DNA of 43,472 nucleotides from a virus, in the UHGV virus genome UHGV-0252305, one strand, 5' to 3'. Below, piece by piece: positions 1,555 through 41,567 of this stretch. Position 1 is the first letter of the stretch, and every line of letters begins with the position of its first letter. Under the pieces are notes generated by a model. It did no database searches, was not told where the DNA came from, and saw only the letters and a list, made by a program, of their open reading frames with translations. Position numbers and translations under genes: made by a program.

Positions 1555-1583
1555 TTGATATGTGAATAGTACCATATTAATTA
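1555..1583 (+). promoter_or_regulatory. Promoter-like site TTGATA-17-TAATTA (tandem with 1599..1627)
   Basis: Shares tgtgAATAGt word with next site; imperfect AATAG-N4-ATATT. Confidence 0.3.
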
Positions 1584-4162: not shown

Positions 4163-4176
4163 TTAGCTATTATAGT
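4148..4176 (+). promoter_or_regulatory. Promoter-like site TTGACA-17-TATAGT with AATAG-N4-CTATT
   Basis: Inverted repeat at 4158..4171; upstream of SSB-like gene. Confidence 0.55.
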
Positions 4177-7450: not shown

Positions 7451-7731
7451 CCCCGGAAGGCAAGATTCAGAAATACGCAAAAGAGCAATTCGAGGCCATT
7501 GGCGGCCTCGTTCGTAAACTTTCGTACGAGGGGCGCTCCGGCGCCCCTGACCTGCTGGTAATTCTCCCCGGCGGCATCGTCTGGTTCGTCGAGGTTAAGA
7601 AAGACGAAAACACGAAGCCAGACCCGCACCAGTTACGTGAGCATGAGCGGATGCGTAAACGCGGTGCAAATGTTTTTGTCGTTGGTTCGTTTAAACAGGT
7701 TGACGACCTAATAGCAAACTATTATAGTTAG
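7447..7731 (+). CDS. VRR-NUC domain nuclease
   Basis: 94 aa; PD-(D/E)XK-type motif PDLLVIL...VEVKK typical of VRR-NUC. Confidence 0.75.
   Translation: MTPEGKIQKYAKEQFEAIGGLVRKLSYEGRSGAPDLLVILPGGIVWFVEVKKDENTKPDPHQLREHERMRKRGANVFVVGSFKQVDDLIANYYS
7700..7728 (+). promoter_or_regulatory. Promoter-like site TTGACG-17-TATAGT with AATAG-N4-CTATT
   Basis: Inverted repeat at 7710..7723; lies in 3' end of VRR-NUC gene, upstream of 7762. Confidence 0.55.
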
Positions 7732-20175: not shown

Positions 20176-20282
20176 TCTTTAATCCTTTGGTTAAGAGGTT
20201 ACGGGTTAAGGTTAATGCGCCAGACGGGAACCACCCGCTTTTCGTGTGCGACACTAGGCGCAAAATTATTCTATCACATTAC

Positions 20283-20311
20283 TTGCACACCCCAATATAA
20301 TAGTGTACTAT
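20283..20311 (+). promoter_or_regulatory. Promoter-like site TTGCAC-17-TACTAT with AATAG-N4-CTATT
   Basis: Inverted repeat at 20299..20311; upstream of Imm-like gene and enzyme cassette. Confidence 0.5.
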
Positions 20312-20352
20312 TCACTTACACCAACGATGTTATCCCAAACAGGAGCTACACC

Positions 20353-22751: not shown

Positions 22752-22756
22752 GAAAA

Positions 22757-22779
22757 AGGCCCCGAAAGGGGCCTTAGTT
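22757..22779. terminator. Bidirectional terminator between kinase gene and major tail gene
   Basis: Stem aggcccc/ggggcct, loop gaaa; A/T runs on both sides. Confidence 0.7.
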
Positions 22780-23952: not shown

Positions 23953-24365
23953 AGCCTCTTGGTGAATGCAATAAAGTTAATTGACAATGGTCGTTTGGCC
24001 CATCCGTTTTCTACAATCAGCGGCCCCAGGCTAACCGATTGAACCTCGGCGCAGATGTCGTTACGCGAAAATGCCTTACCTGATTTAAACGCCGTGTTAA
24101 GTAAGTCTGCCATTTTATTGATTGGCGCGCTACCTTTCACCGATGCGTAGTTAATGTCTATCTGATAGACACCGGCGCGTTGTTCCGTGAAGAATAAGTC
24201 AGCCTGCTCGGTATCCGCCAGCAACATGTAACTTGCCAGATACGGCGTATCTGTTGACGTCGGCGCGTCGATGTTTTCAAGCGCTACCTTGATGCCGTTG
24301 GTGGTTCCGAAGGCTACCAGCGGCACATCAAACGCTTTTGTTAAGTCCTCAAAGTAGCCCATCAT
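23949..24365 (-). CDS. Tail completion / terminator-like protein
   Basis: Position just upstream of major tail gene; overlapping stop/start. Confidence 0.4.
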   Translation of the reverse strand: MMGYFEDLTKAFDVPLVAFGTTNGIKVALENIDAPTSTDTPYLASYMLLADTEQADLFFTEQRAGVYQIDINYASVKGSAPINKMADLLNTAFKSGKAFSRNDICAEVQSVSLGPLIVENGWAKRPLSINFIAFTKRL

Positions 24366-24757
24366 CTCACCTTGCTAGCTTCTTCGTTAATGAGTTGCTG
24401 GAAGCGGGACACGTTAGTCCTGACGAATCCTTGCGGGGCCTGTTGCGACCAGCCATACTCCAGCCGTTGTGCATACGGCAGGTTATTTGTCAGCGTGAAC
24501 TCATGCCAGTCGGTGGCTTTCAGCACGAAACTTGTAGCGTTTCCGGTTGCTGTGTTTCCTGATTTATCCGTAGCATCCGTAATCCCGGAAGCAGGAGTAC
24601 CGCCAGATGCCATCCAGTTCATGCGAAACCGACCAGTATCTACCGGACTCGCCTTTATAATAGCGGAAAACAGCTTGATAGACACCTGACGCATCACCTT
24701 CTCAGGGTTCTTCTTCGCCTTTTCCACGAACTTAGAGACGTCCAGCGCGAAACTCAT
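24362..24757 (-). CDS. HK97 gp10-like head-tail connector component
   Basis: VDTGRFRMNW motif as in gp10-family proteins; position. Confidence 0.45.
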   Translation of the reverse strand: MSFALDVSKFVEKAKKNPEKVMRQVSIKLFSAIIKASPVDTGRFRMNWMASGGTPASGITDATDKSGNTATGNATSFVLKATDWHEFTLTNNLPYAQRLEYGWSQQAPQGFVRTNVSRFQQLINEEASKVR

Positions 24758-25113
24758 TTTCTCACCTGAATAAAGTAGGCCACAACATCATCGTTAACCA
24801 CCTTCTTCTCAATGGCTACGACGGACCATTGCTCGCCGCCGAATTGCACTTTGTCTTCCATCTTAGGAACGACGCTGTAATCGGCTTTAACAATCATGTC
24901 ACCAGCCTGAATCGTCGTACCGTTCACCAGACCCGCATTAACAGGAACCGGAACGGCCCTCAACGGCAACACTTCGTCCGCAGACCAGACGTACTCACCG
25001 AGAACTTCATCCCACACTTTCGAGCCAGCGCGAATCAGAGATACCGTGCTACCGAATTTGGTTAGCAGGCGTGTACCCACGCCTTGCATACGTTTACTGA
25101 AAGCAGTGCTCAT
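24754..25113 (-). CDS. Head-tail adaptor / head closure protein (putative)
   Basis: ATG at 25113 overlaps upstream stop (TGATG); position between capsid and tail modules. Confidence 0.4.
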   Translation of the reverse strand: MSTAFSKRMQGVGTRLLTKFGSTVSLIRAGSKVWDEVLGEYVWSADEVLPLRAVPVPVNAGLVNGTTIQAGDMIVKADYSVVPKMEDKVQFGGEQWSVVAIEKKVVNDDVVAYFIQVRK

Positions 25114-25727
25114 CAGGCAGCCTCCAGTCTCGAAATAACCAGTAGCGCGGACGGTGCCGTGCCCCATGCAGTTACAGTAGCCACCTGCGGGTATACGCCT
25201 CCGAAGTTAGTCCCGGCGCTATCTCGCATAATCTGAACGGCGAATGTTTGCCCGGCGGTTGGGTTAATCACTACACGGGATTCAATAGGGATGGTGGTTT
25301 CCGAGCTAACAAGTTTCGTAGCTGCTGGTGAGCCGTACTGAGCGCCGTTAATGAGGATACGCGACAACAGGATAGACGTTCCGCTAGCGCCGGAGCGACC
25401 GGCCTGTAACTTGATGCGAACGGCATAGTTACCCGCGGTGTTGAATGTAACCAGCCCCGCAGCATTAATCATTACCGGGTCAGATGCACTACCCTGAGCA
25501 GAGCCGAACGATACCTGCAACGCCGTATCTACTGCGGTAGGCGCTTGCGCTACTGTCGACGCAGCGCGGAGAACTTCAACCTCTTTAACACCCGGAGTGG
25601 CGTAAATAGGTGAGTCAGCCATCTGGGTTAATACCCCGCGCAACTTCGCAGGCGTAATAAGTCCGGTCGTGTTGTCCGGTAGCTCGGAACCGATTAGCGT
25701 GAATATCTCTGATTTAGTCTTCGCCAT
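25113..25727 (-). CDS. Structural protein, hypothetical
   Basis: 204 aa, Ala/Thr/Gly-rich, within head-tail joining cluster. Confidence 0.4.
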   Translation of the reverse strand: MAKTKSEIFTLIGSELPDNTTGLITPAKLRGVLTQMADSPIYATPGVKEVEVLRAASTVAQAPTAVDTALQVSFGSAQGSASDPVMINAAGLVTFNTAGNYAVRIKLQAGRSGASGTSILLSRILINGAQYGSPAATKLVSSETTIPIESRVVINPTAGQTFAVQIMRDSAGTNFGGVYPQVATVTAWGTAPSALLVISRLEAA

Positions 25728-25729
25728 TT

Positions 25730-26242
25730 TTAACCCCGGTACACGTTAAACGAGAAACCATTGTTAAGACCACCACACAATAACGGGCGTAAAGCGTCGT
25801 CAGCAGCGGTAATCGCGGTCGTAGCGCCACTGTTGCCATTGTTGAAGTAGGTCACTGTTACTGCACCCTCGACACGCTCAGTCTGCACGGCGCGACCGTC
25901 TGAGTTAGCCCGGACTTCGGTGCCCTCGCCATATGTAGCGGCAGCGATTACCTGCGCAAGAATCACCTGTTTCGGAATGGCGTTGTTGACCACCGGGAAC
26001 CCGTTTAACGTAACGCCGGTGCGGGGGTATGCAAGAGACTGTTCGGCGGATACTCGACGACCGCACATCTGCGGTTCTGCAAGCCCCACATAAGTAGCAC
26101 CGTTGCGTAAGGCCACCTCTGCTGCGGTATCGTCTTCCGGCAGCTCAAGGCCATAATTAGCCGCTAACGCGCGGGCGTCAGCCAGACTAATGTAACTGTC
26201 GGCATTTGGGACGATCACCCCAGTTTCCACGATTAGCGGCAT
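25730..26242 (-). CDS. Head-tail connector / DNA-stabilisation-like structural protein (putative)
   Basis: 170 aa; position after capsid gene cluster; SD GAGGAA. Confidence 0.4.
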   Translation of the reverse strand: MPLIVETGVIVPNADSYISLADARALAANYGLELPEDDTAAEVALRNGATYVGLAEPQMCGRRVSAEQSLAYPRTGVTLNGFPVVNNAIPKQVILAQVIAAATYGEGTEVRANSDGRAVQTERVEGAVTVTYFNNGNSGATTAITAADDALRPLLCGGLNNGFSFNVYRG

Positions 26243-26245
26243 AAA

Positions 26246-26425
26246 TTATTCCTCTGACTTACGGCGACGACGCTTAGTACCACCGCCGTTGTTGTGCGCT
26301 TCTTCATTGTCTGGTTGGGTTGCAACCAGTTCATCCGCTTCTACCACACCGCGAACAGGCATCACCTGTCCGTCAACAATATCAACGTGGGTGTACTTTT
26401 CGCGGATTACGTAATTATCTGCCAT
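26246..26425 (-). CDS. Small protein with basic C-terminus (59 aa)
   Basis: SD AAGGAAAGG before ATG; translation verified; ends KRRRRKSEE; not in ORF track. Confidence 0.35.
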   Translation of the reverse strand: MADNYVIREKYTHVDIVDGQVMPVRGVVEADELVATQPDNEEAHNNGGGTKRRRRKSEE

Positions 26426-26586
26426 GACCTTTCCTTATTACGGCCCCGAAGGGCCGTTGTGTTAAGACACAGTTGCTACGGTGCTACCGGAGATAATATT
26501 ACCATATACATCGTGAACAACCACTTTATACGTGCCGGAGTCGGCCGACACACCGGTAATACGACGTTTGATTACATCAACCATTT

Positions 26587-26967
26587 TTAAGCTCCTCGGG
26601 ATGCGATGATTTTAGCGGCACGAAGTTGTGCCAGTAAGGCGTTAAGTCGAGTGCCTACGGCATTAACCGCAGTCTGTGCGGACGCAGCAACCGCGGTGGC
26701 GTCCTCGCCAGTTACAGCCTGCGTGCCGACGTCTGTAACCGCAGCGCCCTGAACGAACTTATTCCCAGCCATCGCGGTAGTCGAAGTTGTTCCGATAGTA
26801 AGGTTTGACGTACCTGCGCCAATAGCGGTACGCGCTGCCTCTTGGGTCGCCCCCGCGGCGATTACCGCCGGTTTGCCGGTTACTTCTTCCCAGCCTACAC
26901 TGATGTCCAGGTCGCTAAAGTCAACGTTCTTAAGGCTGCGCGGCAAGCCTTTTCCGGTCTTAGCCAT
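26587..26967 (-). CDS. Structural protein downstream of capsid gene (possible decoration protein)
   Basis: 126 aa, Ala/Thr-rich; position. Confidence 0.4.
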   Translation of the reverse strand: MAKTGKGLPRSLKNVDFSDLDISVGWEEVTGKPAVIAAGATQEAARTAIGAGTSNLTIGTTSTTAMAGNKFVQGAAVTDVGTQAVTGEDATAVAASAQTAVNAVGTRLNALLAQLRAAKIIASRGA

Positions 26968-27026
26968 AATTTACCTCTTAGTAAATGAAAAGAGGGACCG
27001 AAGTCCCCCTCGATTATAGCTTAACC

Positions 27027-28100
27027 TTAAGCACCGACACCAGTTACCAGGAAGGCAATCGGTACGTGCTTGCGGTCAACCACACGGCTCCAGTTGGAGG
27101 CGTTCGCCAGGTCCCGCCAGGAAGCAGAGCGCGGGGTAGTCTCGGTGCCGTTGCCAGTGATTACTGCACCGGTGAAGCTGTAACCAAACGGATGTAGCAA
27201 CCAGGTCTTACGGGTCCACAGGGTTTCAACGCCGCCGCCGTTGCCGCGGGACGCTTCGCGCTCGTATTCCAGCGGGTTGGACGGAGAACCTTCACCGTAA
27301 CCGATAGCGCCGTTGCCGAAGATGATGGAGATGAACTTACGGGTCTGGGTCTGGGTCTGGGTCTGGGTCAGGCCAGTGCTGACTACGGTCATGCTGTCGT
27401 CAACAATCACGCGGTAGCCCTGGTAGGTGGCGAACATGGTGTTGTTGTCCGCGTCACGGATGAAGTCGATAAGCTGCTGCTTACGTGCCTGCGCATAAAC
27501 GAAGCTATGCATCGCGATAGCCCCCAGCACTTCACCGCCGTTGCCCATCAGAGCATCGCCCATAGTCTGGGTAGCGTCGATGAACGCGCCCGCATCGAAG
27601 CCCCGAGTAGCAGACACGTCGATTACCATGTCATTCTGCTCGTGGTATTTGTCGGTATCGGCTACGTTGTCATTGTACAGCCCGAGCGCGGTAGCAATCA
27701 GACGGCGTTGTGCCTGGCGCTGCCAGAAGTTATCCAGACGGGACGCTACGGATTGCAGCGGGTTCTGGCTGGTCAGTTCGACAGTCAAATCCGCCTGACC
27801 GAAACCTTCGTTCAGGTATGCAACGCGGGCCATCATCTCACCGGTCTGCACGTTACGCGGGGTGGCGATGTCCTGATATACATCGTTCGAGTAGTTAGGC
27901 TCGATAGAGGTATCAATCGCTTTCCAGAACGGAATATTAGCGACGTTGGACGGGCCGCGGGCAATCTCGGCAGCGTACGGGGTCGGGGTCAGAATACCAG
28001 ACTGGAAGAACGCGGTTTTTTCTACCGGGTCCTCGGTCATATAAGACGCCAGGACCGGGATGTTGCCAGTTACGATATCGCCGATAGTGGTAATTGCCAT
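27027..28100 (-). CDS. Major capsid protein
   Basis: 357 aa directly after scaffold gene; contains internal (TQ)4 repeat. Confidence 0.7.
   Translation of the reverse strand: MAITTIGDIVTGNIPVLASYMTEDPVEKTAFFQSGILTPTPYAAEIARGPSNVANIPFWKAIDTSIEPNYSNDVYQDIATPRNVQTGEMMARVAYLNEGFGQADLTVELTSQNPLQSVASRLDNFWQRQAQRRLIATALGLYNDNVADTDKYHEQNDMVIDVSATRGFDAGAFIDATQTMGDALMGNGGEVLGAIAMHSFVYAQARKQQLIDFIRDADNNTMFATYQGYRVIVDDSMTVVSTGLTQTQTQTQTRKFISIIFGNGAIGYGEGSPSNPLEYEREASRGNGGGVETLWTRKTWLLHPFGYSFTGAVITGNGTETTPRSASWRDLANASNWSRVVDRKHVPIAFLVTGVGA
27341..27369 (-). repeat. In-frame hexanucleotide microsatellite (GGGTCT)4 encoding (TQ)4 in capsid gene
   Basis: Four perfect tandem 6-mers plus partial fifth; protein reads LTQTQTQTQTRK. 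Confidence 0.8.
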
Positions 28101-28102
28101 TA

Positions 28103-28804
28103 TTATTTCCTCAGGGCTTTAAGTTGCCGTTCAAATTCGGCAGGGTTCGATTTATACAGGGCTAAACGCTCTGCTTCACTCATGTCTTTAAACGCTGGTG
28201 CGGCCCCGCCGCCTTTGCTACCGGAAGCCCCGCCGCCGGAAGCTGCATTTGCTTTGATCAAATGCGAAAACGCCTTGTGTTCGCGCAGGTATTTGCGGAA
28301 CTGTTCCGGGTCAGTCGTGATTACGTTACCGTCTGCACCAACAAACTTAGTAACCACATCATCGCCTTCGAACTCAGTCTTAACGAACGGCGCAAGAATG
28401 TCCACTGCTTCTGGGGTAATAAAGTCACCCGCGAAAGAGCCTAGCACCGCTTTACGTTCGCTGCCGAGGATACGCTCTGCCATTCTGGAGATGCGACCGT
28501 CTTTCTCGGCTAACACCGGGTCATACTGGCTACGAATCGTCTTTTCGAACTCATCCATCTTACCAGCGGCTTTTAACGCCTCCTGGTGCGCGCGCTGCCG
28601 TTCTTCTTCGGCCTCTTTTGCTTTGCGAGCGGCTTCTTTCTTCTCCGCCAACAATGCTTCCTGATTAGCCTTAAGCCCGGCAACTTCTTTCTCAATCAGC
28701 GCCTGAACTTCTTCAGCGGTGAACATTTTCGGCGCGTCACCGCCACCAGCTTTATCTTCTGCCCCAGCTTCTTCCTGGAACGGATAACGTAAAAAACGAT
28801 TCAT
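28103..28804 (-). CDS. Scaffolding protein
   Basis: Charged coiled-coil (EEVQALIEKEVAGLKANQEALLAEKKEAARKAKEAEEERQRAHQ) immediately upstream of capsid gene; ATG at 28804 with SD AGGGGA. Confidence 0.6.
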   Translation of the reverse strand: MNRFLRYPFQEEAGAEDKAGGGDAPKMFTAEEVQALIEKEVAGLKANQEALLAEKKEAARKAKEAEEERQRAHQEALKAAGKMDEFEKTIRSQYDPVLAEKDGRISRMAERILGSERKAVLGSFAGDFITPEAVDILAPFVKTEFEGDDVVTKFVGADGNVITTDPEQFRKYLREHKAFSHLIKANAASGGGASGSKGGGAAPAFKDMSEAERLALYKSNPAEFERQLKALRK

Positions 28805-28886
28805 AGTCAGTATGTCCCCTGGACGTTGGAACCCGGGCCACCCGGATTTACATGTCAAGAATAAATTATTCCAACATGCAAGGCAA

Positions 28887-29150
28887 CTATTCCAGAATAT
28901 TCCTCACGTAATCCTGCAACATGAACACTTTCAGCCGCAGCTGCCGTACGCATTCAGCGTTCTGAACGTCGATAGCTAAATCCTCGTCAGCGTCGCTACT
29001 TGGAGCTGCCAGTTTGCACGGAGGCTGCATCATCGTCGTATCCGGTAATGGAATTAGCGTTTGCGACGGCGTGGGACTTGAGCAGGACGCGAGCATCGTC
29101 GAAAGTGCACACGCTGCGACCTGGCGTTTTAATGTATTTAACGACTTCAC
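28887..29150 (-). CDS. Candidate o-spanin (Rz1-like lipoprotein) embedded out of frame in the Rz candidate
   Basis: Lipobox LASC after a signal-like N-terminus; Pro-rich mature region; starts inside 28996..29382 and extends beyond it. Confidence 0.4.
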   Translation of the reverse strand: MKSLNTLKRQVAACALSTMLASCSSPTPSQTLIPLPDTTMMQPPCKLAAPSSDADEDLAIDVQNAECVRQLRLKVFMLQDYVRNILE

Positions 29151-29382
29151 GGGTAATCACCTCTGATTTCGTCTTGCCTTCGTTGTCGGCGGCGGCGGCC
29201 TTTGATTCGTCCTGCTGCTGCCGTTGTGTTTTCTTCGCTAACTCAGCCTGCGCTTTCTGCTGTTGCTGCGAAACGAGATTCGCCCGGCCTTCGCTCCAGC
29301 CGCTGCGATACTGGTAAATGCCGTGGGCGTAAGCCAGGATGATGAAACATGCTCCTGCTACGACAGTTGCTTTAAGATTCAT
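28996..29382 (-). CDS. Candidate i-spanin (Rz-like)
   Basis: N-terminal TM segment followed by Gln/Ala/Lys-rich coiled-coil (QQQKAQAELAKKTQRQQQDESKAAAADNEGK). Confidence 0.45.
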   Translation of the reverse strand: MNLKATVVAGACFIILAYAHGIYQYRSGWSEGRANLVSQQQQKAQAELAKKTQRQQQDESKAAAADNEGKTKSEVITREVVKYIKTPGRSVCTFDDARVLLKSHAVANANSITGYDDDAASVQTGSSK

Positions 29383-29492
29383 GTTTCCCCTTTCTCGATA
29401 AGTAAAGCCCCGCCATAAAGCGGGGCGCTAGTCCTTATCATTTAAACATAGAAACGGCGTAATCTCAGTAAACCAGTTACTTTTTACACAAG

Positions 29493-29647
29493 CAATAGAG
29501 TATGGCCCTTCCGAACGCGTCAGCGTAACTACACTCAGGACTTACGTCCCGCTCCGTTACCTGCCCGCGCCGCGGTCGCTTGTTCATACTTCACAAGCTC
29601 AGGTGGAGCTTAGCACATTTTTGGTGAAAAGTCAACTATTCGAATAG
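29493..29647 (+). repeat. ~150-bp intergenic direct repeat, copy 1
   Basis: Aligns by eye with 41415..41567 at roughly 75% identity; includes 16-bp palindrome AACTATTCGAATAGTT at 29634..29649. Confidence 0.7.
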
Positions 29648-29701
29648 TTTATTCCAACATTTACAATTGAGTGGAATAACCGGAATACATAAACAAATAG
29701 T

Positions 29702-29730
29702 TTGCGCACCCCAATATAATAGGGTGCTAT
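29702..29730 (+). promoter_or_regulatory. Promoter-like site TTGCGC-17-TGCTAT with AATAG-N4-CTATT
   Basis: Inverted repeat at 29718..29731; upstream of lipoprotein cassette. Confidence 0.45.
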
Positions 29731-29757
29731 TCATTCTATCGAACCGGGGAGGCCGTC

Positions 29758-29853
29758 ATGTTAGTCGTTATTTCAGTAGTAATTGCAGTTGATGCGGTGA
29801 TGTTTCTTTGGGCTTGTAGTGGTATTGGTGACACGGGTAATGGTGAACTATGA
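29758..29853 (+). CDS. Small hydrophobic peptide (31 aa) preceding lipoprotein gene
   Basis: SD GGGAGG; ATGA overlap with lipoprotein start; translation verified. Confidence 0.3.
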   Translation: MLVVISVVIAVDAVMFLWACSGIGDTGNGEL

Positions 29854-30194
29854 AATATATTAAATTAGCAGTAGCAGGTGTTGTAGCCGTTTGTTTGAGT
29901 GGTTGCGTAAGGTCGTTGCCAGACCCGGCTTTACAGGTTTATCAGGCAGGGGATACAACGGCAACATGTAATCAGTTACTATCGAGAATCGCCACGACAA
30001 AACAAGCTCAAGCCAACGCTACGCACCGTGTTAATAAGCAAATAGGTACTAACGTTGTACTCGGTGTTACAGGCGCATTCCTGATTGTTCCGCTGTTCTT
30101 TATGGACACGGGCGCCGGGCCTTCTATGGACGAGATGACAGCCGGTAATCGTCTGTCGCAGTTACAACAAACATACGACGAGAAATGCAAATGA
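29850..30194 (+). CDS. Lipoprotein (signal peptide plus lipobox LSGC)
   Basis: MKYIKLAVAGVVAVCLSGC...; own promoter-like site and terminator; opposite strand to flanking structural genes. Confidence 0.6.
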   Translation: MKYIKLAVAGVVAVCLSGCVRSLPDPALQVYQAGDTTATCNQLLSRIATTKQAQANATHRVNKQIGTNVVLGVTGAFLIVPLFFMDTGAGPSMDEMTAGNRLSQLQQTYDEKCK

Positions 30195-30266
30195 CAAATA
30201 GTGTGATGTTTTATTTTGTTTTGTGGGTATCGGCTGCGGCTATCACCGCGATGTTCATATAAAAAT

Positions 30267-30289
30267 AAAGCCCCATAGCGGGGCTTTTT
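30267..30289. terminator. Bidirectional terminator after lipoprotein gene
   Basis: 8-bp stem aaagcccc/ggggcttt with T-runs on both strands. Confidence 0.7.
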
Positions 30290-30290
30290 A

Positions 30291-30752
30291 TCATTCCGGC
30301 TTAGTAACCTTCGCCGCTTTACTGACGGCCTCTACCCCATCGGCATCAGTAACTTTAACGAAGTATTCGCCGACCGCATTAACCGTCAGAGACAGAGCCT
30401 CCTCAGGCGCATTCACCACTTCCTTACCGTCTTTGTACCAGGTCAGAGAATACGGCGCTTTGCCTGCCCTAACCTCGACAGTGATGGTTGCGCTGCCGCC
30501 CGCCAGTTCAGCGTCCTGCGGTTGCGCAGAGAAATACACGTCGCCAGCGTCCGCCAGATACGGAATTTCATAAAGCATACCGGCGGCGGGCAACGCAATA
30601 CCGGTTTTATCTGCAAACGGCATATCATCTACCGGTGTACCGAGTACACTTTCGTCCCCAATAAATACCACGTTCTCGCCAGAGCCAGACACGCGGGCGT
30701 ACTGGACTACGCGACGAGACGGTACGTCAGTTACTTTGAAAAAGCCCATCAT
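30291..30752 (-). CDS. Hypothetical protein in head module
   Basis: 153 aa downstream of head morphogenesis gene. Confidence 0.45.
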   Translation of the reverse strand: MMGFFKVTDVPSRRVVQYARVSGSGENVVFIGDESVLGTPVDDMPFADKTGIALPAAGMLYEIPYLADAGDVYFSAQPQDAELAGGSATITVEVRAGKAPYSLTWYKDGKEVVNAPEEALSLTVNAVGEYFVKVTDADGVEAVSKAAKVTKPE

Positions 30753-31795
30753 TATTCCCCTTTCAGATAATCAGCAACACGTTTATCGAGTTCCGCCATC
30801 TGCTTAAGCGTGAGCGGATTCCCGAAACCATCTACAGATATTACGCGAAACTCTTCCGGCGATATACCGCTGTTACGGAAAATCTTACCTCGCACCGGGC
30901 CGAGCGCCTGGTCCTGAAACCACGCCGGTTGTTGTTTAAGGAACTCGTAGTAAGTGGTGTCTGCGCTTACCTGAGTGCCACCTTCCGCGCCTTTAGCCGC
31001 GCGTTTTGCGCCTTTATCGAGGAAGTCGAACTCGGAACTGATTACCGGAGCCGTGCACGACCGGCAGTTCGGATGGGCTGGGGGCATCGGCCCCTTACCA
31101 ATTTCCCACGTCATCCCGTCTCTGACCCTGCAAATCGTACTGGTGCGGCTGTCAAGCGTTGACACCCACTCGTACTTCTCGATGATGTCGTCGTTCTGGC
31201 GGTACGTCTCGTTACGGGCCTCGTTGGATACGTGGGACAGCGCGGTGCGGATTACCGTAGTCGCGTTACGTTCTGAGATGTCGGCTAGTCCACCAGCGCC
31301 AACAACATTCTTAACAATCTGCCGTGTGGTTTGACCTTGCACAAAGCCCATCTTAACTCCAGTTACAAGACGTGCTACTTCCGTTTCACCCCATCCAGAC
31401 ATCAGCTTGGTGAAATCAACGGGCTTGTCGCTCAATGATAATGGTTGAAACTCGGCAGCGGCCCATACCTGCTCAGCGGTAGGCGTAACAAATTCCGCGT
31501 CTACGTTGGCGGTCAGTGTCTTTACGTTCCACTCAGCCTCATACGCCGCCAGTTCCTTAAGGTCTTCTGTCAGCTTTGTCTGCCAGTCGCCCGTAAGCCC
31601 CACCAGTGCTTCTTCAAGGTCGCGTAACAATTTATTCAGTCGGGCAGTGCTTCGCCCGTCGTCACCGAATAACAGCACCTGCCGTTTTATTTCGTCCCGC
31701 ATCTCCTGAATGAACGGTGCTAGGTCTTTCACTTCACCAGATGCGGTGCGTTGCAGCCAAATCTGGTGGCTGATTAGTGATGTCAGTAAGCTCAT
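30752..31795 (-). CDS. Head morphogenesis protein (Mu gpF-like minor head protein)
   Basis: WVSTLDSRTSTICRVRDGM matches the conserved Mu-F/SPP1 gp7-type motif; follows portal gene. Confidence 0.7.
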   Translation of the reverse strand: MSLLTSLISHQIWLQRTASGEVKDLAPFIQEMRDEIKRQVLLFGDDGRSTARLNKLLRDLEEALVGLTGDWQTKLTEDLKELAAYEAEWNVKTLTANVDAEFVTPTAEQVWAAAEFQPLSLSDKPVDFTKLMSGWGETEVARLVTGVKMGFVQGQTTRQIVKNVVGAGGLADISERNATTVIRTALSHVSNEARNETYRQNDDIIEKYEWVSTLDSRTSTICRVRDGMTWEIGKGPMPPAHPNCRSCTAPVISSEFDFLDKGAKRAAKGAEGGTQVSADTTYYEFLKQQPAWFQDQALGPVRGKIFRNSGISPEEFRVISVDGFGNPLTLKQMAELDKRVADYLKGE

Positions 31796-31876
31796 ATACC
31801 CTCCTGTTTCGATATGACAATCATATCAGTCGGTAACGTATTGGCATAATCATACGCATTTAAGGTTAAAAAGAGC

Positions 31877-31910
31877 TTGATTAAATTCTACATTCAAATG
31901 TAGAATTTAA
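31877..31910 (+). promoter_or_regulatory. Promoter-like site TTGATT-18-TAGAAT overlapped by a 14+2+14 bp palindrome (operator candidate)
   Basis: Arms 31881..31894 and 31897..31910 are exact reverse complements; upstream of KilA-N gene. Confidence 0.55.
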
Positions 31911-31937
31911 ACGTACACTTAAACAGGAGAAATACAC

Positions 31938-32591
31938 ATGAAACTGCAAACATTAGAGTTCCCTTATGGAGAAATCACTTTTGACCGTGAAAACTTTATT
32001 AACGTAAACGAGCTGGTTGACCAGATGAACCGTTGGCGTTTAGACAACGGCATGGGGGCCAGAGAGCTTCGCCAGGTCATGGCAACGGATGGCTTCAAGA
32101 TTTTCAAGGAGGAATGCGAAAAACAACTCGGAATCGAGAATGCCATAAGGGCGACGAAAGGCCGAAACGGTCGCACCTTTGCATGTCTCCATCTGGCAGT
32201 ATATATTGCTGAGCAATACAGCGCCTATTTCCATTTCCTCGTTATCGACCGCTTTATCACACAACGGCAGGTAGAACTACGAAACATTGGCGCGGTGAGC
32301 TTTGTCGAGCTTAACGCTGCCGTTAGTCGAATGATCGAGCGCACGGAGGGAAGAATTGGCCACAGTGGACACTTCATACAGGTGGCTAAAGCGGTAAAGG
32401 AATCCGTAGATATCCGCGACGTAACGGGTTTCGATACATGGGACTCTCAGGATGCGAAGACCAATCAGTTGCGAAGTGACATCCAGAAAGCTCTGGTGAC
32501 GCTTCTTGACATGGAGGCCGTTAATACATGGGGTGAACTGAAAGAGGCGATACCTCGGGTTGTGCGTAAATGTGCGGCTAATATACGTTAA
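31938..32591 (+). CDS. KilA-N domain protein
   Basis: KGRNGRTFACLHLAVYIAEQYSAYFHFLVIDRF fits KilA-N signature; own promoter with palindromic operator; bidirectional terminator downstream. Confidence 0.6.
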   Translation: MKLQTLEFPYGEITFDRENFINVNELVDQMNRWRLDNGMGARELRQVMATDGFKIFKEECEKQLGIENAIRATKGRNGRTFACLHLAVYIAEQYSAYFHFLVIDRFITQRQVELRNIGAVSFVELNAAVSRMIERTEGRIGHSGHFIQVAKAVKESVDIRDVTGFDTWDSQDAKTNQLRSDIQKALVTLLDMEAVNTWGELKEAIPRVVRKCAANIR

Positions 32592-32596
32592 AACTA

Positions 32597-32618
32597 AGGC
32601 CCCTAGCGGGGCCTTTCT
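32597..32618. terminator. Bidirectional terminator between KilA-N gene and portal gene
   Basis: Stem aggcccc/ggggcct, loop tagc; T-rich both sides. Confidence 0.65.
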
Positions 32619-34102: not shown

Positions 34103-35353
34103 TTAAAGTGCGAAAGTCACCGGGATGTTGATTACTGGTTTAACCACCGGCATCTCATAAACTACAGGATAGCCGAGAGCATCAGCCATATGGTCAATGA
34201 CGCCGTCTTTAGCCGGCTCTCCGTTATCGTCGTATGCCTGCTGTTCCAGCGTCTTGGCTATCTCAGGACATAAGTGGTCATTAACCCACAGCTTACCTTT
34301 TTCCAGCGCGGTGTTCACGGCTAAAACGCGGTCTTTAACCGGGGGGTTGGCTGATTTAGCGCGAACATCGAAACCCGCCTGCTGGAGTAATGCAATATCA
34401 GAGATTGACGCCGAGTTTGTCTTACGGTTCTTGCCGCTAGCGTCGGGGTAAACGACGATGCGGTGGCCTTGTGACTTCCACTTCTCGGTAATTACGCGCA
34501 CGGTGTCCGGCGTATCGAACAGGCCCTTCAGTTCTGCAACCGCGTGCCATCCATCTTTACGCTGCACATACACGGCGCTGGCGTTCTTCGTAACGTTGAA
34601 GTCCTGCCCGATGTACAGCGTGTCGCCCGGTTGAATTGTCTCTTTGCTGCGGTGCTTGCGTCGGTCGTATGTGTAATACACGCTTCCGGATGTCAGGTTG
34701 ACAAACTCACCGTTCAGATACGCGTTAATCAGTTGCGCCGGGTAAGTCTCAGTCAGCGAGCTAATGTAATCCGGCGGCAGGAATCTGGCGTTCTCGTGAG
34801 TGGACGCCTGCACCATTGAGTAACTCGGCGTCGGGTTCTCCTTGAACTTGGCGTAAACGAACTTGAACCCTTCCGGAGTCGTGGTGACGGAGATGTGGTT
34901 AATTACCCCCGGGATAACCAGACGCATGCGGGCTACGATTTTGTTCCACGCCAGCTCGGCTTTCTCACGGCTCAATACGTCCAGCTCATCCACGACCGCA
35001 GCCGCGATTTTGAAGCCGACTATCGAGCCGGGGTTATCCATCGAGCGGCAGATAACAGTTCCGAGCACCGTCTTACCGCGAGTGACCACGACTTCTTTGT
35101 CGCCAGATTTAACCAGCACATCGAGGCCGAGGAGGTTAGCCGCTTCCTCGAATGTCGGGTAGAAGATGTCGCGGATAGCCGGGTAGGTGGGGCCGAAGTA
35201 GCCCAGGCGGGTACCCGGGTTCCGGAGCATGAACGTAAGCAGGTCGAGACAGCCGACAAATGTCTTGCCGCTACCGAAGCCTCCGACATAGGCCTTGTAT
35301 TTGTTATCGCAATTCAGGAACAGTGCCTGTGGTGCGGATAGCTGAATACTCAT
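34103..35353 (-). CDS. terL: Terminase large subunit
   Basis: Walker A GGFGSGKTF near N-terminus; 416 aa; followed by portal. Confidence 0.85.
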   Translation of the reverse strand: MSIQLSAPQALFLNCDNKYKAYVGGFGSGKTFVGCLDLLTFMLRNPGTRLGYFGPTYPAIRDIFYPTFEEAANLLGLDVLVKSGDKEVVVTRGKTVLGTVICRSMDNPGSIVGFKIAAAVVDELDVLSREKAELAWNKIVARMRLVIPGVINHISVTTTPEGFKFVYAKFKENPTPSYSMVQASTHENARFLPPDYISSLTETYPAQLINAYLNGEFVNLTSGSVYYTYDRRKHRSKETIQPGDTLYIGQDFNVTKNASAVYVQRKDGWHAVAELKGLFDTPDTVRVITEKWKSQGHRIVVYPDASGKNRKTNSASISDIALLQQAGFDVRAKSANPPVKDRVLAVNTALEKGKLWVNDHLCPEIAKTLEQQAYDDNGEPAKDGVIDHMADALGYPVVYEMPVVKPVINIPVTFAL

Positions 35354-35895
35354 TCCTCTACCTCACCCATGTTCGTTGTTACGATTTTACCTACAGGCTC
35401 CGCAACACTGAAAACAATCTCAGTCGGTGCTGGTTCTTCGGTGGATGCAACCGGTTTCTCTTTGCTGAGGCCCAGTTTAGCCGCGGCAAACGTAGCCGAG
35501 ATGCCCGCAGCCCCTGTCTCAGTGAAGTATGCCTCTTCCAGCGCCTGTGCCGTTTCATAGGCTTCGGCAAATGCGGGAATCTCGCGCAACCACAGCTTAA
35601 TAATCGGGATAGTGACGCCGATGTGTAAGGCAAAGCGGGCCAGTGACGGCGGTTTATCCTGAATCAGTGGGCGTTCGTCACCCTTAGACGTAGGCACAAG
35701 TTCCCATGACGTGCGGTCGAAGAACTCGATTAAAGCGTCGCAATAGTCCGGGTCCCACAGCGCGGCGGAATTACGGGACGATTGATAAAGGCTCTGTTTA
35801 CCGCGCGGTCGTTTACGGCGACGGTTTGCGCTAACAGCTTCTTCATGTGCAGCTTGCACCACCTCTGGCGATGGCTGCTTAAGTTTCAGCTTCAT
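35350..35895 (-). CDS. terS: Terminase small subunit (putative)
   Basis: Overlaps terL start (ATGA-type); ATG at 35895 with SD AAGGGG; position. Confidence 0.55.
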   Translation of the reverse strand: MKLKLKQPSPEVVQAAHEEAVSANRRRKRPRGKQSLYQSSRNSAALWDPDYCDALIEFFDRTSWELVPTSKGDERPLIQDKPPSLARFALHIGVTIPIIKLWLREIPAFAEAYETAQALEEAYFTETGAAGISATFAAAKLGLSKEKPVASTEEPAPTEIVFSVAEPVGKIVTTNMGEVEE

Positions 35896-37728: not shown

Positions 37729-37757
37729 AATATAATAGGGTCGAGGATAATAGTCAA
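37729..37757 (-). promoter_or_regulatory. Promoter-like site TTGACT-17-TATATT
   Basis: Read on - strand, just downstream of lysis-cassette terminator and upstream of gene 37483..37695. Confidence 0.45.
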
Positions 37758-37780
37758 CTAGTCATCACAGAAAATAGATA

Positions 37781-40112: not shown

Positions 40113-40144
40113 TTCGTTTTCCTCTGTCTCGTCTGTGTAAACGA

Positions 40145-40173
40145 ATAGTAGCCTATTCTATCTTAGTGCGCAA
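40145..40173 (-). promoter_or_regulatory. Promoter-like site TTGCGC-17-TACTAT with AATAG-N4-CTATT
   Basis: Inverted repeat at 40144..40157; upstream of 39927..40112 and the lysis genes. Confidence 0.5.
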
Positions 40174-40793: not shown

Positions 40794-41099
40794 TTAGTGT
40801 TTTACACATTCGTTGTAGGTCCATGTATAAAGTTCCTCGGGTGATTTTTCAGGCAACGCAAATGCGATTTCTGTCGCGTTAAAAGCGGTTGTATTAAGAA
40901 ACTTTTTAACGTCTTTGCTGGTATTCTGTTTAGAGGTAATCTCCAGCAGTCCCATATAAATAGTAGACTGACTTAACCCCATATCGCGTTGAGCGCCAAC
41001 GTTCTTAGTAATAGTTGCGAAGTTATCACACATCCCTTTATTTGCTGCCGTTGCGTTTACCGAAAATAAAATTGCTACTGCTGCTATTAACTTTTTCAT
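40794..41099 (-). CDS. Secreted/periplasmic protein with N-terminal signal peptide
   Basis: MKKLIAAVAILFSVNATA signal-like N-terminus; transcribed from promoter-like site at 41221..41249. Confidence 0.55.
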   Translation of the reverse strand: MKKLIAAVAILFSVNATAANKGMCDNFATITKNVGAQRDMGLSQSTIYMGLLEITSKQNTSKDVKKFLNTTAFNATEIAFALPEKSPEELYTWTYNECVKH

Positions 41100-41220
41100 C
41101 CGGCTTCTCTCTCTCTTAGTTAATTTAGGTTCTGCTTACCGGGCTTATCGACTCTTCGTATGCTCGTCGCCGATACTGACCTTATTAAAGGTTGGCCCCC
41201 TGCCTCGCCCAGATAAGTGA

Positions 41221-41249
41221 ATAGTAACCTATTATGTTGGGGTGTGCAA
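41221..41249 (-). promoter_or_regulatory. Promoter-like site TTGCAC-17-TACTAT with AATAG-N4-CTATT
   Basis: Inverted repeat at 41220..41233; ~120-nt leader to secreted-protein gene 40794..41099. Confidence 0.5.
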
Positions 41250-41414
41250 GAGAATAGTTACGTTGCCGTTGTGATTCTTTCGTTTCTTAAAAGAGTACGC
41301 AACGCAGTGGGTGGGCGTTAGCCCACCCCAGCGGAGTGAAGTACTCTCTACCTTGCTCACGGCAACTATAGAAACTTTTAATTATCAGTGACTTGGATAT
41401 TTAGGCGGGATTAA

Positions 41415-41567
41415 CAATAGACTTTGACCCTTCCGAAAGCGTCAGCGGAACTACACTCAAGTGCCTAATGGCACGCGTTGCGTTCCCTGCCGCTCCGCGG
41501 TCGCTTGCGATATCTCACAAGCTCAGTGAAGCTTAGCATATTTTCAAGTAAAAGTCAATACCAGTAG
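41415..41567 (+). repeat. ~150-bp intergenic direct repeat, copy 2
   Basis: Shares blocks ccttccgaa.gcgtcagcg.aactacactca, ccgcggtcgcttg, tcacaagctcag, agcttagca, aaaagtcaa with copy 1. Confidence 0.7.

What the first reader, a model, noticed from the sequence alone, without database searches (positions are those of the whole stretch)
29493..29647. Two ~150-bp direct repeats in the two largest non-coding regions (second copy at 41415..41567)
Copy 1 and copy 2 share several long identical blocks and a conserved hairpin (aagctc ... gagctt). Both sit in divergent intergenic regions just upstream of + strand promoter-like sites (lipoprotein cassette; AlpA-like gene and primase-helicase). Copy 1 ends in the perfect 16-bp palindrome AACTATTCGAATAGTT. 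They could be structured leader or small RNAs, binding platforms for a regulator, replication-origin elements next to the primase-helicase gene, or recombination substrates for cassette exchange.
Basis: seen in the sequence. Interest (0 to 1): 0.55.

Follow-up and report, generated by a model that had tools for sequence, protein, structure and literature searches.

The report
Duplicated promoter plus structured leader RNA

Summary
The window is a Kagunavirus (Guernseyvirinae) genome. The repeat is real: 29493-29635 and 41415-41558 share 115 of 140 aligned bases, with an alignment score of 73 against 10.7±1.3 for shuffles.

It is not a + strand element. On the minus strand each copy carries a conserved extended -10 sigma-70 promoter (TTGACT-N17 ending in TGn-TAAGCT). 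This is followed from about +1 by a two-hairpin RNA: a short P1 and a long bulged P2.

- **Structure:** across 42 distinct homologues 94.9% of pair cells are canonical (27-44% when partners are slid). Sixteen of 29 pairs show compensatory changes.
- **Strand:** G·U cells outnumber A·C cells 108 to 8, which fixes the minus strand.
- **Not coding, not catalogued:** no ORF is conserved, and nothing matches in Rfam or the literature searched.
- **Distribution:** copy 1, upstream of the i-spanin, scaffold and capsid genes, occurs in four sequence types across about 490 Guernseyvirinae records. It is more conserved (96.5-97.7%) than the neighbouring genes (80-86%). Copy 2 is a duplication found in about a quarter of the genomes that carry this sequence type.

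Best mechanism, by inference only: a cis-acting leader that makes RNA polymerase read through downstream hairpins and terminators, as put or nut sites do. Origin and recombination readings are not supported.

The parts
29630..29635 (-). Copy 1 promoter -35 hexamer, TTGACT
   Evidence: Read from the sequence. It is TTGACT in 27 of 28 distinct K-type upstream regions.
29607..29615 (-). Copy 1 extended -10, TGC-TAAGCT, with a 17-nt spacer at 29613-29629
   Evidence: TG is invariant and the third base varies (C/G/A). TAAGCT is found in all 28. There are 13 spacer variants, all 17 nt long. The Jersey type has TTGACT/TAGACT-N17(TGn)-TACGCT and the pink type TGGACT-N17(TGA)-TAACCT. The simple scan misses it because the -10 matches only 3 of 6 positions.
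29493..29602 (-). Copy 1 leader RNA core. Predicted start about 29600/29599; P1 hairpin 29578-29598; P2 long bulged hairpin 29511-29575; conserved 3' tail AAGGGCCAUACUCUAUUG 29493-29510
   Evidence: The covariance model R1 scores it 137.1 bits, E 1e-35. The start site is inferred from promoter geometry and from where conservation begins.
29427..29492 (-). Copy 1 spacer, with blocks shared with copy 2 (AGUNACUGA, GUUUCUAU)
   Evidence: Alignments A1 and A2. In the minimum-energy fold GUUUCU pairs with GGAAAC just before the i-spanin AUG. This rests on prediction only.
29407..29426 (-). GC-rich hairpin GCCCCGC-UUUAUG-GCGGGGC followed by UUUACUUAUC. It is terminator-like and lies 24 nt before the i-spanin start at 29382
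   Evidence: The terminator scan reports 8 pairs, 7 of them G-C. The Jersey type has a hairpin at the same place with a compensatory variant (L133) but a poor U-tract.
29634..29690 (.). Upstream control region of the copy 1 promoter: palindrome AACTATTCGAATAGTT (29634-29649) overlapping the -35 by 2 nt, then TTATTCC/GGAATAA/GGAATAC repeats (29649-29655, 29673-29679, 29682-29688)
   Evidence: Read from the sequence. The TTATTCC-type repeats upstream of the promoter are kept in the K, Jersey and pink types and are absent at copy 2. Their role as regulator binding sites is inferred.
41553..41558 (-). Copy 2 promoter -35 hexamer, TTGACT
   Evidence: Read from the sequence. It is invariant in the copy 2 variants.
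41530..41538 (-). Copy 2 extended -10, TGC-TAAGCT, with a 17-nt spacer at 41536-41552
41415..41526 (-). Copy 2 leader RNA core. Predicted start about 41524/41523; P1 41503-41522; P2 41433-41500; tail to 41415
   Evidence: R1 scores it 97 bits, E 1e-24. The fold has the same architecture as copy 1. Compensatory differences from copy 1 lie in P2: C-G to A-U at the base, GUAAC/GUUAC to GGAAC/GUUCC, and apical CGGGAC/GUCCUG to GUGCC/GGCAC.
41309..41328 (-). Hairpin downstream of copy 2 (GGGUGGGC-UAAC-GCCCACCC on the RNA). It has no adjacent U-tract, so it is not a canonical intrinsic terminator
   Evidence: Read from the sequence and folded. The scan does not call it a terminator. Other copy 2 variants have a different hairpin at the same place (GGUGCC-UUCG-GGCACC).
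41214..41250 (-). Second, tandem leftward promoter of the phage's recurrent type (TTGCAC-N17-TACTAT with AATAG-N4-CTATT in the spacer), downstream of copy 2 and upstream of gene 40794-41099
   Evidence: Inverted repeat I1 and direct repeat D6 with 20282-20318 and 29702-29733. The motif has been published as a PHIRE consensus for fBC-Eco01.

Best explanation
Each repeat is a transcription module read on the window's minus strand.

**What it is.** An extended -10 sigma-70 promoter (TTGACT, 17-nt spacer, TGn, TAAGCT) drives a non-coding leader RNA of about 110 nt. The RNA starts within a few bases of its first hairpin. It folds into a short 5'-terminal hairpin (P1) and a long bulged hairpin (P2). 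The base of P2 (ACCGCGGnGCG ... CGCnUUCGGAAGGG, with two invariant G·U positions, modelled as a tandem wobble pair, and a bulged C) is nearly invariant. About 65-90 nt further on lies a GC-rich hairpin, and then the operon.

- Copy 1 is the promoter and leader of the i-spanin, scaffold, capsid and head-tail operon (29382 down to 22780).
- Copy 2 is a duplicate placed at the head of the leftward early, lysis, terminase and head transcription unit.

**How it most likely works (inferred, not shown).** The nascent leader acts in cis on the transcribing host RNA polymerase, either alone (as HK022 put RNA does) or with a host or phage factor (as a nut site does). The complex then reads through the hairpin just downstream and through later terminators, for example the strong one after the capsid gene at 27011-26990.

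**My confidence, by step.**
- Promoter plus structured minus-strand RNA: about 0.85.
- Cis-regulatory leader whose function does not depend on the downstream genes: about 0.6.
- Antitermination as the mechanism: about 0.35.

The single confidence value given for this explanation (0.4) refers to the whole statement, mechanism included.
For: **Repeat.** It is significant.

**Promoter.** The conservation pattern is that of an extended -10 promoter. The -35, TG and -10 are fixed, the 'n' of TGn varies, the spacer has 13 sequences but always 17 nt, and the discriminator varies. The same layout with different hexamers appears in the Jersey and pink types.

**RNA structure.**
- All seven variant types tested fold to the same P1 + P2 architecture.
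- On 33 distinct sequences, 95.4% of cells pair, against 30-42% when partners are slid.
- On 42 distinct sequences including the Jersey type, 94.9% pair, 16 of 29 pairs change on both sides, 0 of 500 shuffles reach this, and slid controls give 27-44%.
- P1 is completely replaced yet still pairs: GCUUGU/ACAAGC, UACGCU/AGCGUA, UUCGU/ACGAA, AAGAUGC/GCAUCUU.

**Strand.** There are 108 G·U cells against 8 A·C cells. The minimum free energy is -76.1 kcal/mol (z -2.9) on the minus strand and -54.2 (z -1.8) on the plus strand.

**Not coding.** The ORFs differ in frame or are absent between variants.

**Selection.** The leader is 96.5-97.7% identical to Salmonella Jerseyviruses, where the adjacent i-spanin gene is 80-86% and the scaffold gene about 83%.

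**Position.** It always lies just upstream of the i-spanin gene and on the same strand. It occurs in 181 K-type, 269 Jersey-type and 37 pink or Cornell-type records, against 462 records with a capsid protein at least 80% identical.

**Independence from downstream genes.** The two copies precede unrelated genes. One genome carries a copy 2-type core at the copy 1 locus (L018).

**Terminators to overcome on the minus strand.** 29426-29407, 27011-26990 and 40288-40267.

**No protein antiterminator found.** No Q- or N-like protein was detected. The 'AlpA-like' gene encodes only a 56-aa HTH_17 protein.

**Parallels with put.** There are two similar copies per genome, a two-stem RNA, and one copy starting at the promoter.
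Against: - There is no experimental transcript data. No transcriptome study of this phage group turned up.
- The start site is inferred.
- Only the K-type copy 1 hairpin looks like an intrinsic terminator. The hairpins after copy 2 and in the Jersey, pink and Cornell types lack a U-tract. An immediate terminator is therefore not a constant feature.
- There is no detectable similarity to HK022 put or to any Rfam family.
- Copy 2 is dispensable: about three quarters of K-type genomes lack it. In FSL SP-101 the same slot holds a different structured RNA followed by a canonical terminator and then another promoter. That layout looks as much like a small-RNA gene as like a leader.
- The covariation alignments were fitted to the model, which inflates pairing somewhat.
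Confidence: 0.4

Rival explanations
1. The leader is a 5'-UTR stability and processing element. The 5'-terminal hairpin P1 and the compact P2 protect the long late mRNA from 5'-end-dependent RNase E decay and from Rho loading. The long hairpin before the ribosome-binding site is a processing site (for example RNase III) or a stabiliser. Transcription elongation is not affected.
For: P1 begins 2-4 nt from the predicted 5' end in the K, Jersey and pink types, and only its pairing is conserved, not its sequence. The downstream hairpins are extended by flanking pairing and mostly lack U-tracts: GAUAAG...CUUAUC in the K type and UAUACG...CGUAUA in the Jersey type. The function would not depend on the downstream genes, which fits two copies and exchangeable cores.
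Against: A generic stabiliser would not need the near-invariant P2 base and 3' tail (ACCGCGG, UUCGGAAGGG). Nor would it explain 97% nucleotide identity where neighbouring genes are 80-86% identical. It also does not explain why the promoter is duplicated together with the RNA.
Confidence: 0.2
2. The module is a gene for a stand-alone small RNA of about 200-230 nt, running from the start site to the downstream hairpin. It acts in trans as a regulator or decoy, for example by titrating a host or phage RNA-binding factor. This would resemble short terminated leader transcripts such as lambda 6S RNA or StxS. Read-through into the operon would be secondary.
For: The promoter, structured body and GC hairpin have the layout of a small-RNA gene. 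The copy 1 hairpin scores as a terminator. Copy 2 is followed by a separate promoter before the first gene (41250-41214). In FSL SP-101 the equivalent slot holds an unrelated structured RNA ending in a canonical terminator. A short RNA made from a late-promoter leader has precedent (StxS, PMC7547250, listed).
Against: At copy 1 I found no other promoter for the i-spanin, scaffold and capsid genes, because only 24 nt separate the hairpin from the start codon. Most transcripts must therefore read through. The hairpins after copy 2 and in the other types are not canonical terminators and have no poly-U tail of the kind Hfq-type small RNAs carry. No conserved single-stranded seed with an identified target was found.
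Confidence: 0.15
3. The leader is a sensor, either a riboswitch-like aptamer or the binding site of a specific phage protein. It switches expression of the downstream operon at the level of termination or translation in response to a ligand or a phage factor.
For: The unpaired and bulged nucleotides are nearly invariant while the stems covary. This is the conservation pattern typical of aptamers and of protein-binding RNAs. In the K type a hairpin and ribosome-binding-site pairing lie downstream.
Against: No known riboswitch family matches even at E<=10. There is no convincing mutually exclusive pairing between the core and the downstream hairpin. The only candidate, a 9-bp match in copy 2, is at chance level and absent from copy 1. 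No candidate RNA-binding protein was found.
Confidence: 0.1
4. The repeats work at the DNA level, as replication-origin elements, recombination substrates for cassette exchange, or only as binding platforms for a DNA-binding regulator.
For: Copy 2 lies at the divergence point of the two transcription directions, next to the primase-helicase operon, where cumulative GC skew is lowest. RNA cores have been exchanged between the two loci in at least one genome. Regulator-type motifs flank copy 1: the palindrome and the TTATTCC repeats.
Against: Compensatory base changes with a strong G·U over A·C asymmetry point to selection on a single-stranded RNA of one strand. The universal copy is in the structural module and the primase-proximal copy is optional. 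There are no iterons or tandem repeats. The skew follows gene orientation. The regulator-type motifs lie outside the repeated unit and are not shared by copy 2.
Confidence: 0.05

Closest known systems
HK022 put RNAs (putL and putR), cis-acting antiterminator RNAs that need no protein factor
   Same: There are two similar copies per genome, at the heads of two transcription units. One put copy (putL) starts right at the promoter, as both copies do here. Both are two-stem RNAs with bulges and conserved unpaired bases. Terminators lie downstream. No dedicated antiterminator protein is evident.
   Different: The two show no sequence or structure similarity. This RNA is longer (about 95-110 nt against about 70) and has one short and one long stem. 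It sits in a virulent siphovirus, with the universal copy at the late structural operon and not at the early PL/PR promoters. Dependence on the RNA polymerase beta' zinc-binding domain and independence from protein factors are untested.
Lambda nutL/nutR sites (boxA + boxB) and the N leader
   Same: Both are duplicated RNA signals near the starts of two operons. In both, a hairpin is followed by a short pyrimidine-rich conserved block (UCUAUUG here, against boxA GCUCUUUA). In lambda PL a large hairpin lies between the signal and the first ribosome-binding site.
   Different: No N-like arginine-rich protein was found. The apical loop sequence is not conserved, so there is no boxB-type loop recognition. 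The resemblance to boxA is only about 5 of 8 positions and rests on my own comparison, which I did not test.
Lambdoid late promoter pR' with its leader and tR' (6S RNA), read through by Q; also AlpA of Pseudomonas aeruginosa
   Same: A sigma-70 promoter is followed by a leader of about 200 nt and a hairpin, just before lysis (Rz-like spanin) and head genes. A hexamer resembling the -10 recurs around the start site: TAAGCT...TGAGCT in the K type and TACGCT...TACGCT in the Jersey type. This is like the sigma-dependent pause element that Q and AlpA need.
   Different: No Q-like protein is present. The neighbouring 'AlpA-like' protein is a 56-aa HTH_17 protein, not the eight-helix AlpA. The repeated hexamer is absent from the pink and Cornell types. 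Q systems do not need a covarying RNA structure.

Membership tests
HK022 put antiterminator RNA | Homology in sequence or structure to putL/putR | tested here: not met
   Model R1, run without filters on the HK022 region 24000-32000, which should include the early control region holding putL/putR (their positions were not located), gave only hits of 4.3 bits or less at E>6. The test ran in one direction only, because no put model was available.
HK022 put antiterminator RNA | Two stem-loops transcribed just downstream of a sigma-70 promoter, with two similar copies per genome | tested here: met
   The promoter lies immediately upstream. The two copies are 82% identical.
HK022 put antiterminator RNA | Suppresses downstream terminators in cis, without protein factors, through the RNA polymerase beta' zinc-binding domain | not testable with these tools
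   This needs in vitro transcription and rpoC mutants. Only the presence of downstream terminators could be shown.
Lambda-type nut site | boxA consensus plus a boxB hairpin with a conserved loop bound by an N-type arginine-rich protein | tested here: not met
   The apical loops vary (GUAA, AUUA, UGUAG, CUCG, CUCA). No N-like protein appears among the ORFs. The boxA-like block matches only partly, by my own comparison.
Q / AlpA-dependent late promoter | A Q- or AlpA-type antiterminator protein encoded by the element | tested here: not met
   PHROGs and Pfam scans of the early genes find only HTH_17 (56 aa), HTH_3, DUF551, a holin and unknowns.
Q / AlpA-dependent late promoter | A -10-like pause element in the initially transcribed region | tested here: inconclusive
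   TGAGCT (K type, lacking the key A at position 2) and TACGCT (Jersey type) lie at about -3 to +5. Nothing comparable is present in the pink or Cornell types.
Any Rfam family (riboswitches, ribozymes, small RNAs, leaders) | A score at or near the family's gathering threshold | tested here: not met
   There were no matches at gathering thresholds in the whole window. The best permissive hits were 13-16 bits against thresholds of 35-100.
Iteron-type or transcription-activated replication origin | Iterons or an AT-rich unwinding region, next to replication genes, conserved at that position | tested here: not met
   There are no tandem or short direct repeats in either region. The conserved copy is in the structural module, and the primase-side copy is missing from FSL SP-101 and from most relatives.
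Protein-coding small ORF (as annotated in some relatives, e.g. fBCEco01_09, Shashou_056) | A reading frame conserved across homologues | tested here: not met
   ORFs of at least 25 aa differ in strand, start and frame between variant types and are absent from several. Variants differ by 1-3 nt in length.

The most novel reading that the evidence does not exclude
The leader could be a new class of RNA that binds RNA polymerase and prevents termination and pausing without any protein, analogous to HK022 put but unrelated to it. It would be the main device by which a whole subfamily of virulent siphoviruses (Guernseyvirinae), which encode neither an RNA polymerase nor a Q- or N-type factor, drive host polymerase through their late operons. 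Copy 2 would extend the same device to the other long operon.
Probability: 0.3. Interest if true: 0.8.

Novelty: new variant of a known kind. Interest (0 to 1): 0.62.

Why it matters
Guernseyvirinae (Kagunavirus, Jerseyvirus, Cornellvirus) are frequently isolated phages, and several of the papers found here evaluate them for therapy or biocontrol. The literature searches turned up no study of how they regulate transcription.

This analysis identifies the probable late promoter and a conserved structured RNA at its start that is under stronger constraint than the adjacent genes. That gives three concrete things:

- an RNA family that could be added to Rfam;
- a correction for small ORFs that are mis-annotated across this region in many deposited genomes;
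- a directly testable candidate for RNA-mediated control of elongation outside the lambdoid phages. Only the put RNAs of HK022 and its close relatives are well established there.

The module is also a compact part (promoter plus leader) that could be useful for engineering these small phages.

Tried and rejected
- **Rfam.** Searches at gathering and at permissive thresholds found nothing.
- **tRNA or tmRNA-like elements.** None.
- **Tandem repeats or iterons.** None.
- **Coding potential.** ORFs are not conserved.
- **+ strand RNA.** Rejected on the G·U asymmetry and folding energies.
- **Relatives outside the subfamily.** A looser DNA pattern in IMG/VR gave 26 new loci, of which 25 were chance matches and one (L067) was a new copy 2 variant. 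A core pattern scanned over GTDB genomes and metagenomes gave only these phages, two phage-contaminated records (L147, L148) and high-GC chance matches inside genes. Pseudomonas phage Almagne, with a capsid protein 53% identical, has no element.
- **HK022 put region.** No similarity.
- **N-like arginine-rich proteins and Q- or AlpA-type proteins.** None found.
- **RfaH ops and boxA motifs.** I compared these by eye only. There is no ops match and only a weak boxA-like block.
- **An antiterminator-type alternative pairing.** The 9-bp complementarity between the P2 5' strand and the sequence after the copy 2 hairpin (I1) is at chance level and absent from copy 1.
- **GC skew for origin mapping.** Uninformative, because it follows gene orientation.
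- **Literature.** Searches for transcription studies or non-coding RNAs in these phages found only a promoter-motif prediction.
Full report
**1. Identity of the window and check of the observation**

The two intergenic regions match Kagunavirus genomes (Guernseyvirinae; for example BUCT823, fBC-Eco01, phiEc4) at 95-100% identity.

The repeat is real:
- The repeat finder reports 29493-29537 / 41415-41459 at 89% identity.
- A gapped local alignment of the two complete intergenic regions gives 29493-29635 against 41415-41558. It has 115/140 identities and 7 gap columns, and scores 73. Five hundred dinucleotide shuffles gave 10.7 +/- 1.3, maximum 16.
- Weaker shared blocks extend the unit leftward to about 29447 / 41367.
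- The inverted repeat aagctc...gagctt and the 16-bp palindrome (29634-29649, copy 1 only) are both present.

**2. The element reads on the minus strand and begins with a promoter**

I aligned the two copies with divergent copy 2 variants from other Kagunaviruses, in reverse complement. The conserved layout is TTGACT, then 17 nt ending in TGn, then TAAGCT, then 4-5 variable nt, then a conserved block starting CUGAGCUUG.

In 28 distinct upstream regions:
- the -35 is TTGACT in 27;
- TG is invariant, while the next base is C, G or A;
- TAAGCT is present in all;
- the spacer has 13 different sequences but is always 17 nt long;
- the discriminator has 6 variants.

This is the footprint of an extended -10 sigma-70 promoter. 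The simple consensus scan misses it because TAAGCT matches TATAAT at only 3 of 6 positions. Diverged homologues keep the layout with other hexamers: phage Jersey has TTGACT-N17(TGT)-TACGCT and phage pink has TGGACT-N17(TGA)-TAACCT.

Promoter geometry puts the start site at about 29600/29599 for copy 1 and 41524/41523 for copy 2. This is an inference.

**3. A conserved RNA structure**

All seven variant types tested fold independently into the same shape. A short hairpin P1 begins 2-4 nt from the predicted 5' end. It is followed by a long hairpin P2 with bulges, an internal loop and a variable apical stem-loop.

I built a covariance model on 30 distinct sequences (R1). It finds exactly two hits in the window, 29493-29602(-) at 137 bits and 41415-41526(-) at 97 bits, and one in Salmonella phage FSL SP-101.

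| Alignment | Distinct sequences | Pair cells canonical | Slid controls | Pairs changed on both sides |
|---|---|---|---|---|
| A4 (K type) | 33 | 95.4% | 30-42% | 7 of 29 |
| A7 (K type plus Jersey type) | 42 | 94.9% | 27-44% | 16 of 29 (0 of 500 shuffles reach this) |

Examples of the covariation:
- The pair at the base of P2 is C-G, U-A or A-U.
- GUAAC/GUUAC becomes GGAAC/GUUCC.
- The apical stem is CGGGAC/GUCCUG, GUGCC/GGCAC, CACG/CGUG, GGUGC/GCACU or GGGCGU/ACGCCC.
- P1 is entirely replaced but still pairs in the Jersey (UACGCU/AGCGUA), pink (UUCGU/ACGAA) and Cornell-type phages (AAGAUGC/GCAUCUU).

One caveat is that these alignments were fitted to the model, which favours pairing. The slid controls and the independent single-sequence folds argue that the signal is real.

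The strand is fixed by wobble pairs. There are 108 G·U cells against 8 A·C cells, so the same helices would be 84.6% paired on the other strand. The full copy 1 leader folds at -76.1 kcal/mol (z -2.9) on the minus strand and at -54.2 (z -1.8) on the plus strand.

Nearly invariant nucleotides cluster at the base of P2 and in the 3' tail (ACCGCGGnGCG ... CGCnUUCGGAAGGG, with two invariant G·U positions (a modelled tandem wobble pair that never varies, so covariation does not test it) and a bulged C, then UAUUG). This suggests recognition by a specific partner.

**4. Not coding, not catalogued**

ORFs of at least 25 aa over the element differ in strand, start and frame between variants, and several variants have none. 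The variants also differ in length by 1-3 nt. The small ORFs annotated here in some GenBank records are therefore unlikely to be genes.

Rfam gives nothing at gathering thresholds, and only noise at 13-16 bits at E<=10. ARAGORN finds nothing. Full-text searches found no description of the element. The fBC-Eco01 paper reports only the recurrent promoter motif tgAATAGTa-ccTATTat.

**5. Distribution and selection**

| Sequence type | Records in the phage collection |
|---|---|
| K type (this window) | 181 (224 places, so about 43 genomes have a second copy) |
| Jersey type | 269 |
| Pink/TO17 type, plus partial matches that include the Cornell type | 37 |

For comparison, 462 records encode a capsid protein at least 80% identical to the window's. 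Essentially every member of the subfamily therefore has one form of the element. In every locus examined it lies just upstream of the i-spanin gene and on its strand.

Pseudomonas phage Almagne, whose capsid protein is 53% identical, has none. Pattern scans of IMG/VR, GTDB genomes and metagenomes returned only these phages, two phage-contaminated records and chance matches.

Between the window and Salmonella Jerseyviruses the 258-nt leader is 96.5-97.7% identical. The adjacent i-spanin gene is 80-86% and the scaffold gene about 83%. The non-coding leader is therefore the most constrained sequence in the neighbourhood.

Copy 2 is a lineage-specific duplication of promoter plus leader. It varies much more between phages (72-100%). 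FSL SP-101 lacks it. One genome carries a copy 2-type core at the copy 1 locus (L018). The cores are therefore interchangeable, and their function does not depend on the genes downstream.

**6. Context**

Copy 1:
- Upstream of its -35 lie the palindrome and phased TTATTCC/GGAATAA repeats. The repeats are kept in the K, Jersey and pink types, which suggests that a DNA-binding protein regulates initiation.
- Downstream come a spacer of about 65 nt, a GC hairpin that scores as a terminator (29426-29407), and 24 nt later the i-spanin start codon. I found no other promoter for the i-spanin, scaffold and capsid operon.
- A strong terminator follows the capsid gene (27011-26990), only about 20 nt before the next gene.

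Copy 2:
- It lies back to back with the rightward (AlpA-like gene and primase) side.
- It is followed by a hairpin without a U-tract (41309-41328), and then by the recurrent phage promoter (41250-41214) in tandem.
- In FSL SP-101 the same slot holds a promoter, an unrelated structured RNA, a canonical terminator and then the same recurrent promoter.

Proteins:
- No Q-, N- or AlpA-type antiterminator is detectable.
- The 'AlpA-like' product is a 56-aa HTH_17 protein. P. aeruginosa AlpA is an eight-helix Q-like protein.

**7. Mechanism**

What is shown:
- a duplicated module of promoter plus structured non-coding RNA on the minus strand;
- this module sits at the head of the two long leftward transcription units;
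- it is under strong constraint.

What is inferred is that the leader acts in cis and co-transcriptionally to make RNA polymerase resistant to the downstream hairpin, terminators or Rho. It could do this alone, as put does (features), or with Nus-type or phage factors, as a nut site does. The arguments for this reading are:
- the position at +1 of the promoter;
- the two-stem shape with invariant unpaired nucleotides;
- two copies at two operon heads;
- independence from the downstream genes;
- terminators that must be passed;
- the absence of a protein antiterminator.

The arguments against are:
- the immediate hairpin is terminator-like only in the K-type copy 1;
- there is no similarity to put;
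- copy 2 is optional and sits in a slot that looks like a small-RNA gene.

The rivals and my estimates are an mRNA stability or processing element (0.2), a trans-acting small RNA or decoy (0.15), a ligand or protein sensor (0.1) and a DNA-level function (0.05).

**8. Verdict**

This is a new, uncatalogued RNA family of a known general kind, a promoter-proximal regulatory leader in a phage. Its mechanism can be tested directly.

Noticed in passing
window 1565-1578, 1609-1622, 4158-4171, 7710-7723, 20299-20312, 29718-29731, 40144-40157, 41220-41233 (also 37749-37762 with one mismatch): The operator-like palindrome AATAG-N4-CTATT sits inside the 17-nt spacer of recurrent promoters (TTGACA...TATAGT and TTGCAC...TACTAT). 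There are 10 matches at up to one mismatch, against 1.2 expected. A Cro/CI-type HTH_3 gene (1319-1534, minus strand) lies next to two of them and is an obvious candidate repressor. The motif equals the 'phage promoter' consensus published for fBC-Eco01. Because the -35 and -10 are sigma-70-like, it is more likely a host-polymerase promoter with an operator than a promoter for a phage RNA polymerase.
   Followed up: partly
window 29649-29690; L087 1430-1490; L089 1240-1300: TTATTCC/GGAATAA repeats lie upstream of the copy 1 (late) promoter. In phage Jersey the two direct copies start 10 bp apart. They are conserved in the K, Jersey and pink types and absent at copy 2. They are probably binding sites for a late-gene regulator. 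TTATTCC also occurs at 20402 and 20573, near the start of the tail operon.
   Followed up: partly
L059 (FSL SP-101) 35095-35480: At the position of copy 2, this Jerseyvirus has a promoter (TTGACA-N17-TAAGTT), an unrelated hairpin-rich RNA of about 250 nt, a canonical terminator (GGGCAGG...CCTGCCC TTTAGTT) and then the recurrent promoter. This slot may be a general site for expressing non-coding RNAs in the subfamily.
   Followed up: no
L018 2218-2328 (IMG/VR contig 3300045988_039442): The copy 1 locus has copy 1-type flanks but carries an RNA core otherwise seen only at copy 2 loci (the GZMU_E2010 type). This is evidence that the cores are exchanged between the two loci.
   Followed up: partly
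window 29596-29612 and 41520-41535; L087 1503-1530: The -10 hexamer recurs a few bases downstream, around the predicted start site: TAAGCT...TGAGCT in the K type and TACGCT...TACGCT in the Jersey type. Because the two types use different hexamers, the pair has changed together. This could be a sigma-70-dependent promoter-proximal pause element. The pink and Cornell types do not have it.
   Followed up: partly
window 29450-29455 with 29383-29388; 41370-41375 with about 41283-41288: In the minimum-energy folds of both copies the shared block GUUUCU pairs with (G/A)GAAAC on the far side of the downstream hairpin. In copy 1 that partner lies immediately before the i-spanin AUG, overlapping the ribosome-binding region. 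This could mask translation initiation. It rests on prediction only.
   Followed up: no
window 22756-22775, 30267-30287, 32596-32615: Near-identical GC hairpins (AAGGCCCC...GGGGCCTT) lie at the ends of the small + strand cassettes embedded in the minus-strand structural region; two of them (22756-22775 and 30267-30287) score as terminators on both strands, the third (32596-32615) on the + strand only. The cassettes look like insulated moron-type insertions.
   Followed up: no
L147 (GTDB 'Bacillota bacterium' MAG contig JAEWLW010000073.1) and L148 (Taishania pollutisoli scaffold48, 738 bp): Two records labelled as bacterial genomes contain Guernseyvirinae leader sequence (99.6 and 37.9 bits). 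These are most likely phage contigs that were binned or assembled with the bacterial genome.
   Followed up: no
L142 (Shemara), L143 (Pantoea phage AH01), L144 (St162), L138: The Cornell-type leaders keep only part of the motif (a CAGGGAC...GUCCCUG stem with a GGGCC-GUAA-GGCC tip, and AGUCUAUU). They add a conserved block CAGCACCGGUCAAACAGACAUCGG and a conserved TTGACA-N8-TATAAT-N5-TTGACC arrangement upstream. Their promoter and fold were not resolved.
   Followed up: no
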